From Massalongia carnosa (Eukaryota), in the NCBI GenBank assembly GCA_965645245.1, contig OZ287068.1:2790001-2854000 (forward strand): a stretch of 64,000 nt of DNA, written 5' to 3'. Of the stretch, positions 10,289 through 60,188 are shown piece after piece; within the stretch, counting starts at the first letter, position 1, and every line of letters begins with the position of its first letter. Under the pieces are notes generated by a model, which did not search any database, was not told where the DNA came from, and saw only the letters and a list, made by a program, of their open reading frames with translations. Position numbers and translations under genes: made by a program.

Positions 10289-10387
10289 TAATCGTCGGCT
10301 CGCTTACCTCCGGGATCCGACTTGAAAAAATGTCGACCGCATGACATTTTTCAAGTCGGATCCCGGAGGTAAGCGAGCCGACGATTA
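10289..10387. repeat. Near-perfect 46/45-bp inverted repeat (hairpin, MITE-like)
   Basis: 10289-10334 is the reverse complement of 10343-10387 except for one A in a homopolymer run; 8-nt loop; both ends are TA. Confidence 0.9.
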
Positions 10388-18450: not shown

Positions 18451-19115
18451 CCTCGCACGTTGTGGAAGGGTGGAGTGGAACTTCGCTAGGCCGGTGGCAG
18501 GTCAGGTGGCGAGTCAGGTGACAAATCAGGTCGTCCGGGTGCTGGCGTCTTAGCATTGGAGTTTTGTGCTGCGTTTTTCCTTTCATCTTTTCATACACCT
18601 TACACATCTTACATACATCTATTCATACTGCTATCAGCACATGTACAATTAGCTACACACATAGCACATATACACACATACAGCTAATCAGCTATACACA
18701 TGCTTGACGATTCATCTATTCAGTGAGGCTCTTTTTGATTATTTATTAGTTTGTTTGTTTAAGGCTCAGCTACTTCCGATCGCGCGGTGGTCGCCAAATG
18801 TGAAGGGATAAACTGGGTGGTGACGATCGATAGAAGAACTGAAACAAACAAACGAACAATCAAAAGGAGCCTCACTGAATAGATGAATCGTCAAGCATGT
18901 AAATAGCTGTGTATATGTGCTATGTGTGTAGCTAACTGTACATGTGCTGATAGCAGTATAAATAGATGTATGTATGTAAGATGTGTAAGGTGTATGAAAA
19001 GATGAAAGGAAAAACGCAGCACAAACCTCCAATGCCAAGACGCCAGCACCCGACCACCTGATCTGTCACCTGACCTGCCACCAACCTAATGGAGTTCCAC
19101 TCCATAACGTAGAGG
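18451..19115. mobile_element. Foldback/MITE-like element: imperfect inverted arms of ~270-310 bp around a ~80-bp spacer
   Basis: ~18451-18760 is the reverse complement of ~18842-19115, with substitutions and indels (e.g. catgcttgacgattcatctattcagtgaggctc / gagcctcactgaatagatgaatcgtcaagcatg). Confidence 0.75.
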
Positions 19116-57590: not shown

Positions 57591-58552
57591 GATGGGAAGA
57601 AGGGAAGAGGTGAGGGGGAGTGATGGATTTGATAAGGGAGAAGGAGAGAGATATAGCTGAAACGCGAAGAGGAGTTTAAAATCTTCGTTCGTGTGTGTAT
57701 ATATGTTTGTTTCCCTCCCCTCAATCATGACACCATCAACTAATTCAACTCTCCTCCCTTGCCCGCCTTTGGTTCCGCCGGAGTACTTTCTCTTCCTCAT
57801 TCCTTCCATCCTGCCATCGCAGCAGGCGTGCGCCATTTTTAACCCCCACCCCCTTTTCCATTTCTCCTCATTTTCTCCATCCTGTCTCCTTAAATCATCT
57901 TTTATCTCATCTATTCTATTCCTGTCCTCGTAGAAAAAATTCTCATCTTGCAAGATTCTCCTCCCAAGACCGAGTTCTCTGTCTGTTTTTTTTTCCCCGG
58001 AGGATGGTGACCAACCGACTGATTGGCTGGTTGGCTGACTGGATGAGTGAGAGATAGACAAAAAGGAACCCGAGAGGGGTTGGAACGATAGGACGAAATA
58101 AATGAAAAGGGAGTGTACGTTCTGGTGGAAATTTACCTACCTACTTACATAGATTATATATGGGTGTGGAGAGGGGGTTCGGCGGAAGATTGGATTGAAC
58201 GGTTGGGTTGAACGAAGGGTTAGAAGAAGAAGAGGGCTGTTGAATGGTGATTAATGAGCGGGCTGATATAAGGAAGGGAATGAGGAAGGGAGGGAAAAGA
58301 TAGGTTAATTAGGTCGGGTAGGTAGGTAGGTAAGTGTTGGCTGTTCAGGAATGGACAGTGCATCGGGCACGGCGACCCAAAAATTGTAGCTGATGAAGAA
58401 GAGATTGAAATAACGGTGAAAACGGATGGATAATTTAATCTTTCATTTAGTAGATGATATAACTCCTAATCACCGGTCTTAGGAAGAAAGAAAGCATTAA
58501 AAAGAAGTAATTTAAAAAGAAAAAGAACCTCCCCCCCCCCTAAACCCCAAAG

Positions 58553-58880
58553 AAAAAGCTTCACCACAGAGGATCGAACCTTTGTCCTCCTCCTCCATAA
58601 CGGCAAAGACTTCGGATCCCTTAAAGGAGCTTCTATACAGTTCTCCCGAAGGAGAACTGTACAAGACGCTCCCCAAAGGGACGGCTTCCTAATTTCTCCG
58701 GTCTAGATTGAACTCCAAGAGTTCCTTGAGTTCCGTCCTCTCTACCCCTCAGTGGCCCCCGATGTGAGTGTGGTGGAACTCAAGACAGAGCAGTATGTTC
58801 TACAGCGGTAGTTGTCGCTGTAGAACCATCTGATGGAATCTGGCAAACCTTCCAACTGAGCTAGCTAGGTTCACTGGTGA
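58553..58880 (-). ncRNA. tRNA-like Pol III unit with a ~240-nt structured insert (atypical tRNA, pseudo-tRNA or novel ncRNA)
   Basis: A box TAGCTCAGTTGG, B box GGTTCGATCC, T-run terminator and four internal helices, including a C(UUCG)G tetraloop on this strand. Confidence 0.65.
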
Positions 58881-59202
58881 TGAAATAGTTTCTAATTCTA
58901 ATTTTAGCTTCGACGGGTTTGGTTGGGAGATGGGGCTCTAGGGCGCCAACCATCGGAATATTCTGGGGGATGGCTTTCTCGACACTTTTTCGAAAGGGGT
59001 AATGGCTTATGGTTTATGGGAATTGGCTCTTGGAGTCTTTTGGTACCTGGTTTTTTTGTGAGCGAGATGGTACACGGTGGATGAAAAGGGATCACGACGG
59101 CTTACATATATTATGCCAAGGTATGTTAGCTTCTTCAAAGGCTTGGGGCCATCTTATTTAACTCATTCCCTCAAGTAAGATTGAGCCACGGGTTCCAGCT
59201 TC

Positions 59203-60188
59203 TTATTGCCCCACGTTATCCTCACATTTCCTATAACAGACCCTCCCCTCCTTTCCTTGCCTCACGCTTTCCAACTCTAAGCCCGGATCAGGGGCTGGTC
59301 TTCGAGTCGCAATGACCCACCAATTATCTTTCTCATATCCAGAACTCTCAACTTTACCTCCTGCTTGAAGGATGTCATCCTCGAGCTCTCCTCGACGGTA
59401 AAGATGATAATAACGGTTGAAGGTCGTTGACCCTTCCTTCCCATCTGCATTGCCATTCTGCTTCAACACCCATGGAACCATCACATCCTGCTCATCACCT
59501 TCATCCCACCCTCGACGGCTATTTTTCTGCTCAAGCGCCCACACATATATCAGTGCGCTGGCCAGTGGACGATCATTGGAAAGACTTTTATTAGGGTGAT
59601 TTGGTACGAGATGGAGAGTCTCCAGTATAGCGGCAATGGCTCCGATTCTTCTGGCATTCGTGGATAGATGGTGGACTACAGCAATGGAAATAGCAAAGTC
59701 AAAGGAGGAGCGGGGATGAGGCAAGGAAAGATTGTCCGCAATGATCGCCTCCTGGGGTCGATGGCGAGATGCAATCTGCACCAGATTCGGTGAGCTTATG
59801 CCATGTCAGCAAATTATCTATACGGCTGCCCGTTGTGATTCTGTTTACAGCTTACCGGTCAGAACCAATAATGAAAACCTTAGGATTCACGTTTAGGTAT
59901 TTTCCGTTGCCACACCCAACATCCAAACCAACTGCTCCATCCAGAAGACCGCGAAGGAATTGCTCGACAATGGGCCAAGGCTACCGAAGGACTATAATCA
60001 GCTGATGTGACCAGTATAAGAGGGGGTGGGGAAGGAGGTTCGCATAGCGTAATAGGGCCTCGTTCCCATACTAGGAGAAATACCTTATATCGGGTGGATG
60101 AAAAATGAGAAGCTATCTGATCATACACACGGTGGACATGAAGCTCTTCGTATTTTTCACTATCTGGCTGAGAAAGAAGAGTCGCCAT
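59203..60188 (-). CDS. TRM9: tRNA wobble-uridine methyltransferase Trm9, two introns
   Basis: HVHRVYDQIASHFSSTRYK|PWP, LDVGCGNGKY, AISIAVVHH, YVWALEQ and RYYHLY motifs. Confidence 0.95.

What the first reader, a model, noticed from the sequence alone, without database searches (positions are those of the whole stretch)
58553..58880. tRNA-shaped Pol III gene whose anticodon region is expanded into a ~240-nt multi-hairpin RNA, just downstream of TRM9
Seen on the minus strand: a 5' tRNA-like half (acctagcTAGCTCAGTTGGaagg..gccaga), a 3' half with B box GGTTCGATCC, then a T run. The D, anticodon and acceptor stems are imperfect, although terminal tcacca/tggtga can pair. The insert has an 11-bp perfect hairpin (58797-58826), a 10-bp helix (58725-34 / 58775-84), a 6-bp hairpin (58710-24) and a long stem capped by C(UUCG)G (58617-58681). 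I found no U6, SRP, RNase P or MRP hallmark. Inference: promoter boxes and insert structure are maintained while the cloverleaf has decayed, suggesting a tRNA-derived ncRNA (e.g. a small-RNA precursor or stable tRNA-intron RNA) rather than a decoding tRNA.
Basis: partly seen in the sequence, partly recalled or inferred. Interest (0 to 1): 0.72.

Follow-up and report, generated by a model that had tools for sequence, protein, structure and literature searches.

The report
Orphan tRNA-derived Pol III-type RNA gene
A single-copy stretch in a lichen-associated fungus has intact tRNA-type promoter boxes and a terminator around a strongly folded ~320-base RNA that cannot be a tRNA, but neither its expression nor any deeper conservation could be shown.

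Summary
On the minus strand (58882-58553) lie a perfect tRNA A box (58863-58852), a B box (58580-58571) 283 bp downstream, and a T5 run (58557-58553) followed by three more. The RNA between them folds far better than shuffles (z -5.68).

It is not an ordinary or intron-bearing tRNA: ARAGORN finds nothing, with or without introns. It matches no Rfam family. It is not a young multicopy repeat: there is one copy in the window, and 6-17 kb contigs of three assemblies run through it.

My best reading is a lineage-restricted, tRNA-derived type-2 Pol III gene for a non-decoding structured RNA. It may be a small-RNA precursor, through its ~28-bp UUCG-capped hairpin.

Function is unproven:
- The only relative found is ~98% identical (a lichen metagenome). 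Its six changes show no sign of constraint.
- 80 TRM9-bearing fungal loci from metagenomes, six of them syntenic, hold no homologue.
- No RNA data were available.

A decayed tRNA relic remains a serious rival. Interest is moderate. I rate it a new variant of a known kind.

The parts
58883..58906 (-). AT-rich upstream stretch holding TAAAAT (58906-58901), 19-24 nt before the first base of the terminal helix region. This is a possible TATA-like TFIIIB site.
   Evidence: Sequence. The role is inferred, not tested.
58875..58880 (-). 5' strand of the terminal (acceptor-like) helix, UCACCA.
   Evidence: MFE and pair probability 0.87 for UCACC/GGUGA.
58843..58874 (-). Hairpin 1 (8 bp plus 5 bp). It encloses the A box, so it is a new fold and not a D arm.
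   Evidence: Pair probabilities 0.98 and 0.92.
58852..58863 (-). A box TAGCTCAGTTGG.
   Evidence: The only match in the window; 0.29 expected with one mismatch allowed.
58786..58842 (-). Hairpin domain 2, with the 11-bp perfect hairpin 58797-58826.
58725..58784 (-). Hairpin domain 3, closed by the 10-bp perfect helix 58725-34/58775-84.
58710..58724 (-). 6-bp hairpin GAACUC-UUG-GAGUUC. It repeats the GGAACUC/GAGUUCC word of the neighbouring helix.
   Evidence: pair probability 0.97.
58599..58703 (-). Long rod-like hairpin. Its core 58617-58681 has 28 bp (6+7+3+12) capped by a UUCG loop, which gives it a pre-miRNA-like shape.
   Evidence: Rfam gives only sub-threshold miRNA-precursor look-alikes there (best is let-7, 20.4 bits against a gathering score of 53.5).
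58566..58598 (-). 3' hairpin holding the B box. It sits where a T arm would, but it is not a T arm.
   Evidence: outer helix pair probability 0.59, inner 0.97.
58571..58580 (-). B box GGTTCGATCC.
   Evidence: The only match in the window; 0.11 expected.
58561..58566 (-). 3' strand of the terminal helix, UGGUGA.
58499..58557 (-). Terminator zone with four T5 runs (58557-53, 58524-20, 58518-14, 58503-499). There is no T4 run inside the 322-nt body.

Best explanation
This is a single-copy, lineage-restricted transcription unit of the tRNA (type-2) Pol III kind that descends from a tRNA gene but no longer makes a tRNA.

Inferred mechanism: TFIIIC anchors on the intact B box (58580-58571). Through its flexible linker it reaches the intact A box 283 bp upstream (58863-58852). 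TFIIIB is then placed on the AT-rich stretch upstream. Pol III starts near 58882-58875 and stops at the T5 run 58557-58553, giving an RNA of about 320-328 nt.

Predicted fold: a closed multi-helix junction. It has a 5-6 bp terminal helix, a hairpin around the A box, three internal hairpin domains, a 105-nt rod with a 28-bp UUCG-capped core, and a hairpin around the B box. It cannot decode.

The most likely use, which I hold weakly, is as a stable structured ncRNA or as a Pol III-driven precursor whose long hairpin feeds a Dicer-type small-RNA pathway, as known for tRNA-linked milR-4 of Neurospora.

Shown here: the motifs, their order and rarity, the fold and its strand bias, non-membership of tRNA and of Rfam families, and low copy number. 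Inferred: transcription, RNA ends, any processing, and any function.
For: - A box, B box and T5 run lie in the right order on one strand. Each box is unique in 64 kb, and the joint pattern occurs in 0 of 100 shuffles.
- A loose A/B/T descriptor run over 636 kb (the window plus 80 loci, both strands) returned 6 rows: this element, one true tRNA seen in three near-identical loci, and two rows with mismatches.
- The 22 promoter positions are canonical, while the D, T and acceptor stems of the cloverleaf can no longer pair (read) and no tRNA model finds an anticodon arm. This is the pattern expected if transcription, not decoding, was kept. That step is inference.
- Fold z is -5.68. It is the third most structured locus of the window and the only one of the three that favours one strand (-135.3 against -119.9 kcal/mol, 14 against 8 G-U pairs).
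- There is no T4 run inside the 322-nt body, and four T5 runs lie just after it.
- No ORF of 60 aa or more overlaps it.
- Contigs of 15.6, 17.2 and 6.3 kb from three assemblies cross it with 0 differences, so it is not a high-identity repeat.
- Precedents: Neurospora Pol III milRNAs with T-run ends and tRNA-linked milR-4 (PMC3547838, passages read). TFIIIC has a flexible tauA-tauB linker that bridges variable A-B distances (PMC11811891, passages read).
Against: - No conservation beyond a ~98% identical relative.
- That relative has 6 substitutions in the 330-nt element against 3-5 in 742 flanking nt (Fisher p 0.03-0.10), so the element is not slower than its flanks.
- Of the six changes, 3 keep a pair through G-U, 1 lies in a loop and 2 break pairs. 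The variant's MFE (-133.3) is matched or beaten by 27% of 400 random 6-substitution sets.
- No homologue by blastn or nhmmer in 0 of 80 TRM9 loci at 50-65% protein identity. This includes 6 loci that keep the convergent CAP-Gly neighbour, and no bona fide tRNA sits at that position in any of them.
- The A-B distance of 283 bp is far outside natural tRNA genes: 30-67 bp in human, and whole genes of 71-133 bp in yeast (PMC11811891). Efficient TFIIIC use is therefore assumed. That yeast TFIIIC tolerates a few hundred bp in vitro is my recollection, not a call.
- The absence of an internal T4 run is shared by 26% of window tiles.
Confidence: 0.45

Rival explanations
1. It is a non-functional relic. 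A tRNA gene was disrupted by an insertion or rearrangement in its middle and then decayed. The A and B boxes survive by chance or recency, or because a TFIIIC-bound site is useful in itself as a boundary between the convergent TRM9 and CAP-Gly genes, without the RNA mattering.
For: - The element evolves at least as fast as its flanks in the only relative.
- There is no sign of structural constraint.
- No homologue in 80 related loci, 6 of them syntenic.
- It lies in a convergent intergenic region.
Against: - All 22 box positions are canonical, while the D, T and acceptor stems no longer pair. That is hard to get by neutral decay (inference).
- Perfect 10-12 bp helices and a z of -5.68 would erode in an old neutral sequence.
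- The strand bias with 14 G-U pairs points to an RNA-level fold.
Confidence: 0.3
2. It is a copy or fragment of a tRNA-derived SINE or another repeat family of this genome.
For: - It has tRNA-type boxes, and fungal tRNA-related SINEs exist (PMC5063351, abstract only).
- A 6-bp word, GAAGCT, occurs at both borders.
- The whole genome was not available, so old diverged copies cannot be excluded.
Against: - There is one copy in 64 kb; other blastn matches are 18 nt or shorter.
- Three assemblies bridge it in long contigs.
- The B box sits at the 3' end next to the terminator, not in a 5' tRNA head followed by a body and tail.
- A flanking shared word at least as long as the 6-bp one arises in 276 of 2000 shuffles.
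- No copy in the 80 loci.
Confidence: 0.1
3. It is a very divergent member of a known Pol III RNA family (SRP RNA, RNase P or MRP RNA, U6) that Rfam models fail to see in this clade.
For: The size (~320 nt), the Pol III signals, and a closed multi-helix fold in which the 5' and 3' ends pair.
Against: - No hit for any of these families even at E up to 10 on 346 and 801 nt.
- By eye I found no match to the RNase P CR-I or P4 pairing, the SRP helix-8 motif or the U6 ACAGAGA box. Those motifs are recalled, not tested by a tool.
- The architecture is five separate hairpins, not an SRP rod.
Confidence: 0.05
4. It is a real decoding tRNA gene with an exceptionally long (~240 nt) intron.
For: A box, B box and terminator; the terminal UCACCA/UGGUGA can pair.
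Against: - ARAGORN with introns of 0-3000 nt finds nothing at the default or 95% thresholds. Below 80% it gives only spurious models that do not use the A and B boxes as D and T arms.
- The Rfam tRNA model gives no hit at E up to 10.
- In A-box/B-box register the acceptor, D and T stems do not pair (sequence).
Confidence: 0.02

Closest known systems
Canonical nuclear tRNA genes (type-2 Pol III promoters)
   Same: [quoted passage not shown]
   Different: The A-B distance is 283 bp, against 30-67 bp in human tRNA genes (PMC11811891). There is no cloverleaf and no anticodon arm. The A box is buried in a new 8+5-bp hairpin. tRNA finders reject it.
Pol III-transcribed, tRNA-linked small-RNA precursors: Neurospora milR-4, and the MHV68 tRNA-miRNA units mentioned in the same paper (PMC3547838); also the type-2-promoter miRNA hairpins of bovine leukemia virus (PMC12498455, abstract only)
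   Same: A Pol III unit of tRNA ancestry that carries a pre-miRNA-sized hairpin and ends in a T run. It occurs in a filamentous ascomycete setting.
   Different: In those systems intact tRNA or tRNA-like modules lie beside the hairpin and RNase Z releases it. Here the hairpins lie between the boxes and no tRNA module is left for RNase P or Z. No small-RNA data exist here.
tRNA-derived SINEs of fungi (such as AfuSINE2 of Aspergillus fumigatus, PMC5063351, abstract only) and exapted tRNA/SINE-derived Pol III ncRNAs such as rodent BC1 (recalled)
   Same: tRNA-derived promoter boxes drive a non-tRNA transcript of a few hundred nt.
   Different: SINEs keep both boxes in a 5' head, carry a tail, have target-site duplications and are multicopy. 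Here there is a single copy, the B box is at the 3' end, and no significant flanking duplication exists.
   Same: The same idea: Pol III signals with a hairpin domain in place of the anticodon arm.
   Different: That case keeps an intact tRNA upper half. Here the upper half is also lost and the insert is more than twice as long. The organisms are unrelated and no sequence relation was tested. It is an AI note, unchecked here.

Membership tests
tRNA (Rfam RF00005 / ARAGORN model), with or without an intron | Cloverleaf with acceptor, D, anticodon and T arms that scores above a tRNA finder's threshold. | tested here: not met
   ARAGORN finds 0 genes in the window and nothing with introns of 0-3000 nt at the default or 95% thresholds. 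Rfam gives no tRNA hit at E up to 10.
Type-2 Pol III gene | [quoted passage not shown] | tested here: met
   TAGCTCAGTTGG and GGTTCGATCC are each unique in the window. The joint pattern occurs in 0 of 100 shuffles.
Type-2 Pol III gene | Oligo-T terminator after the B box and none inside the body. | tested here: met
   T5 lies 14 nt after the B box, three more T5 runs follow, and there is no T4 run in the 322 nt. The last point alone is shared by 26% of tiles.
Type-2 Pol III gene | A-B spacing within the range that TFIIIC uses in natural genes. | tested here: not met
   283 bp here, against 30-67 bp quoted for human tRNA genes and 71-133 bp for whole yeast tRNA genes (PMC11811891). Tolerance of longer spacing is recalled only.
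Type-2 Pol III gene | Occupancy by TFIIIC or Pol III, and a Pol III-dependent transcript. | not testable with these tools
   No RNA run was listed for this organism, and there are no ChIP data.
Known Rfam families (SRP, RNase P, RNase MRP, U6, ribozymes, snoRNAs) | Covariance-model score at or near the gathering threshold. | tested here: not met
   0 of 4227 families at gathering. At E up to 10 there are only generic miRNA-hairpin look-alikes far below threshold.
tRNA-derived SINE | Multicopy, dispersed. | tested here: inconclusive
   One copy in the 64-kb window, and long contigs bridge it in three assemblies. The whole genome is not held.
tRNA-derived SINE | Target-site duplication and a tail. 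| tested here: not met
   The only flanking shared word is 6 bp, and one at least as long arises in 276 of 2000 shuffles. No A-rich or simple-repeat tail follows the B box.
Fungal milRNA precursor | A hairpin long enough for Dicer. | tested here: met
   A 28-bp core (58617-58681) inside a 105-nt rod.
Fungal milRNA precursor | Discrete small RNAs mapping to one hairpin arm, bound by Argonaute. | not testable with these tools
   No small-RNA data.

The most novel reading that the evidence does not exclude
A lichen-associated ascomycete has turned a tRNA gene into a new Pol III gene. TFIIIC boxes held 283 bp apart, several times the natural tRNA spacing, drive a ~320-nt 'giant cloverleaf' RNA. 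Its promoter boxes are kept inside new hairpins, and its 28-bp UUCG-capped hairpin yields a Pol III-made small RNA. It would be a cellular counterpart of viral tRNA-miRNA units and a case of a young ncRNA gene born from a tRNA.
Probability: 0.25. Interest if true: 0.65.

Novelty: new variant of a known kind. Interest (0 to 1): 0.42.

Why it matters
If it is transcribed, this would be a clean, single-copy example of a tRNA gene exapted into a different structured RNA in a fungus. It would also be a natural test of how far apart TFIIIC can use its two boxes. It would add a cellular, non-viral case to the short list of Pol III units that carry miRNA-like hairpins. If it is silent, it is an unusual tRNA relic and of little consequence. 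The question can be settled with one Northern blot or one small-RNA library.

Tried and rejected
- Whole-genome copy count: no genome is held for this window.
- RNA evidence: no RNA holder was listed among the 4 runs found. All laid runs are contigs, so they say nothing on expression.
- Metagenome scan with an exact A-box+AAGG / gap 252-282 / B-box pattern: 0 hits.
- TRM9-anchored loci from metagenomes: 527 stretches matched a pattern, 265 are relatives and 80 were kept, at 50-65% identity.
  - blastn at E up to 0.01 found 0 of 80, and nhmmer --max at E up to 10 found 0 of 80.
  - Regex and mismatch descriptors found no second element. The L007, L012 and L037 rows look like coding or chance sequence.
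- The six syntenic loci (L017, L024, L025, L026, L032, L033):
  - Their TRM9/CAP-Gly spacer has no Rfam hit.
  - The spacer folds weakly (best z -2.8, L025 5720-5919).
  - Its 11-bp helix acquires mismatches rather than compensations between loci (by eye), so I do not call it a positional orthologue.
I did not build part-models.
- Searching the full contigs behind the loci was not possible, because those records are not held.
- Earlier-findings look-ups by place and by sequence gave nothing.
- Target-site duplication: only a non-significant 6-bp word.
- Ideas considered and dropped for lack of motifs or Rfam hits:
  - a group I intron in a tRNA;
  - box C/D or H/ACA snoRNA cargo;
  - self-cleaving ribozymes;
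  - a mitochondrial DNA insert (the element's 50% GC argues against it).
- A regulatory link to the adjacent TRM9 gene is pure speculation and was not pursued.

Full report
**What is there**

Read on the minus strand, the stretch 58882-58553 runs as follows.
- It begins after an AT-rich run (58906-58883, containing TAAAAT).
- The A box TAGCTCAGTTGG lies at 58863-58852.
- The B box GGTTCGATCC lies at 58580-58571, with 283 bp from A-box start to B-box start.
- UGGUGA follows, and can pair with UCACCA at the 5' end.
- It ends in TTTTT at 58557-58553, with three further T5 runs within 62 nt.

Each box is the only match in the 64-kb window (0.29 and 0.11 expected). The joint pattern occurs in 0 of 100 shuffles. 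A looser A-box/B-box/T-run descriptor, run over the window plus 80 fungal loci (636 kb, both strands), returned 6 rows:
- this element;
- one genuine tRNA, seen in three near-identical loci;
- two rows with mismatches.

The Pol III-type signature is therefore real and not a chance pattern.

**The fold**

The 330-nt RNA has an MFE of -135.3 kcal/mol, against -103.9 +/- 5.5 for 100 dinucleotide shuffles (z -5.68, none as good).
- the 11-bp perfect hairpin 58797-58826;
- the 10-bp perfect helix 58725-34/58775-84;
- the 6-bp hairpin 58710-24;
- a rod whose 28-bp core 58617-58681 is capped by UUCG.

The terminal UCACC/GGUGA helix has pair probability 0.87. The A box lies inside a new 8+5-bp hairpin, and the B box lies inside a 3' hairpin.

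Among 1158 GC-corrected 330-nt tiles of the window, only 7 are more extreme. All 7 belong to two inverted-repeat loci that fold equally on both strands. This element favours the minus strand: -135.3 against -119.9 kcal/mol, and 14 against 8 G-U pairs. That is what an RNA-level fold looks like. No ORF of 60 aa or more overlaps it.

**What it is not**

*Not a tRNA.*
- ARAGORN finds no tRNA in the window.
- With introns of 0-3000 nt allowed it finds none in this region at the default or 95% thresholds. Below 80% it gives only spurious models that ignore the boxes.

*Not a known RNA family.*
- Rfam gives 0 of 4227 families at gathering.
- At E up to 10 on 801 or 346 nt it gives only generic miRNA-precursor look-alikes to the long hairpin. 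The best is let-7 at 20.4 bits against a threshold of 53.5.
- There is no tRNA, SRP, RNase P, MRP, U6 or ribozyme hit.

*Not a cloverleaf.* In A/B-box register the acceptor, D and T stems do not pair (read from the sequence).

*Not a young repeat.*
- blastn finds one copy in the window; other matches are 18 nt or shorter.
- Contigs of 15.6, 17.2 and 6.3 kb from three assemblies of the same organism cross it without a difference.
- The only flanking direct repeat is a 6-bp word, and one at least as long arises in 276 of 2000 shuffles.
- A full copy count was impossible because no genome is held.

**Surroundings**

- Upstream on the same strand is TRM9. Its last exon (59206-59805) matches PDB 5cm2_Z 'tRNA methyltransferase' at E 6e-41, with a weak Methyltransf_11 hit.
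- Downstream, and convergent, is a CAP-Gly protein gene.
- The element sits about 320 nt past the TRM9 stop codon.

**Relatives**

Four public runs hold the stretch. Three are from the same coded organism and may be the source of the window. One is a lichen metagenome (X4) that holds 0.48 of the sampled words. Laid on the window, X4 is a ~98% identical relative.
- It has 6 substitutions inside the 330-nt element.
- It has 2 substitutions plus one 3-nt deletion in the 327 nt downstream (toward CAP-Gly).
- It has 1 listed substitution in the 415 nt upstream (toward TRM9). One further difference was counted but not listed in table 3, so its place is unknown.
- The element therefore changes at least as fast as its flanks (Fisher p 0.03-0.10, depending on how the flank is counted).

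Mapped on the MFE, three changes keep a pair through G-U, one is in a loop and two break pairs. The variant's MFE (-133.3) is matched or beaten by 27% of 400 random six-substitution sets. None of the six changes touches the boxes or the terminator, but with 27 such positions out of 330 that carries no weight. This relative gives no evidence for constraint, and no strong evidence against it.

**Looking further out**

- An exact-pattern scan of the metagenome collection found nothing.
- Anchoring on TRM9 gave 80 loci at 50-65% protein identity.
- None of the 80 holds anything like the element by blastn, nhmmer --max or the descriptor.
- Six of the 80 keep the convergent CAP-Gly neighbour (L017, L024, L025, L026, L032, L033).
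- Their spacer has no Rfam hit and folds only weakly (best z -2.8). Its one long helix picks up mismatches rather than compensations between loci (by eye).
- No genuine tRNA gene sits downstream of TRM9 in any locus. ARAGORN finds 4 tRNA-Arg genes, and all are upstream.

On present data the element is therefore restricted to one narrow lineage.

**Most likely mechanism**

The anatomy is that of a type-2 Pol III gene. TFIIIC binds the B box with high affinity and searches for the A box through a long flexible linker (PMC11811891, passages read). TFIIIB would then sit on the AT-rich 5' flank, and Pol III would run to the first T5.

The spacing of 283 bp is far beyond natural tRNA genes (30-67 bp between the boxes in human; whole genes of 71-133 bp in yeast; same paper). 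That yeast TFIIIC tolerates a few hundred bp in vitro is my recollection only.

The argument for retained function is internal. All 22 box positions are canonical while the D, T and acceptor stems have gone, and the RNA has acquired perfect 10-12-bp helices and a strand-specific fold.

I cannot show what the RNA does. The one Dicer-sized hairpin, together with the Neurospora precedent of Pol III-made milRNAs with T-run ends and tRNA-linked milR-4 (PMC3547838, passages read), makes a small-RNA precursor the most concrete guess. A stable structured RNA is equally possible.

**Rivals**

- A decayed relic, perhaps kept only as a TFIIIC site (0.30), fits the lack of conservation. It fits poorly with intact boxes and perfect helices.
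- An old repeat copy (0.10) cannot be excluded without the genome.
- A divergent known Pol III RNA (0.05) and an intron-bearing tRNA (0.02) failed their tests.

**Verdict**

It is a new variant of a known kind (tRNA-derived Pol III ncRNA genes). Interest is moderate. One Northern blot or small-RNA library, plus a genome-wide and sister-species search, would decide it.

Noticed in passing
window 10289-10387: A 41-nt, 100% complementary inverted repeat with a 17-nt spacer. Its tiles are among the most strongly folding of the window on both strands.
   Followed up: no
window 18471-19104: A foldback of about 630 nt made of nested inverted repeats (83 nt at 98%, 67 nt at 97%, 77 nt at 86%). It folds strongly on both strands and looks like a foldback or MITE-type repeat.
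   Followed up: no
window 58531-58540: A G10 run just past the terminator zone. The relative's contigs in run X4 break exactly here (records end at 58529 and start at 58531), probably because homopolymer length varies.
   Followed up: no
L017, L024, L025, L026, L032, L033 (for example L025 5620-5700): In these syntenic relatives TRM9 seems to have an extra short 3' intron (GTAAGT ... CTAAT ... TAG) after the conserved domain (by eye). The window's gene runs on in frame there.
   Followed up: no
L018 1437-1509, L019, L020 (minus strand); L034 4030-4132 (plus strand): Genuine tRNA-Arg genes lie 0.9-3.2 kb upstream of TRM9 in some relatives: CCG in L018-L020, and ACG with a 31-nt intron in L034. 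None is at the position of the element.
   Followed up: partly
window 58769-58780 with 58557-58568: On the RNA, CACCACA inside hairpin domain 3 can pair with UGUGGUG at the 3' end (7 bp). This competes with the 5'-terminal UCACCA and is a possible alternative closing helix (I3).
   Followed up: no
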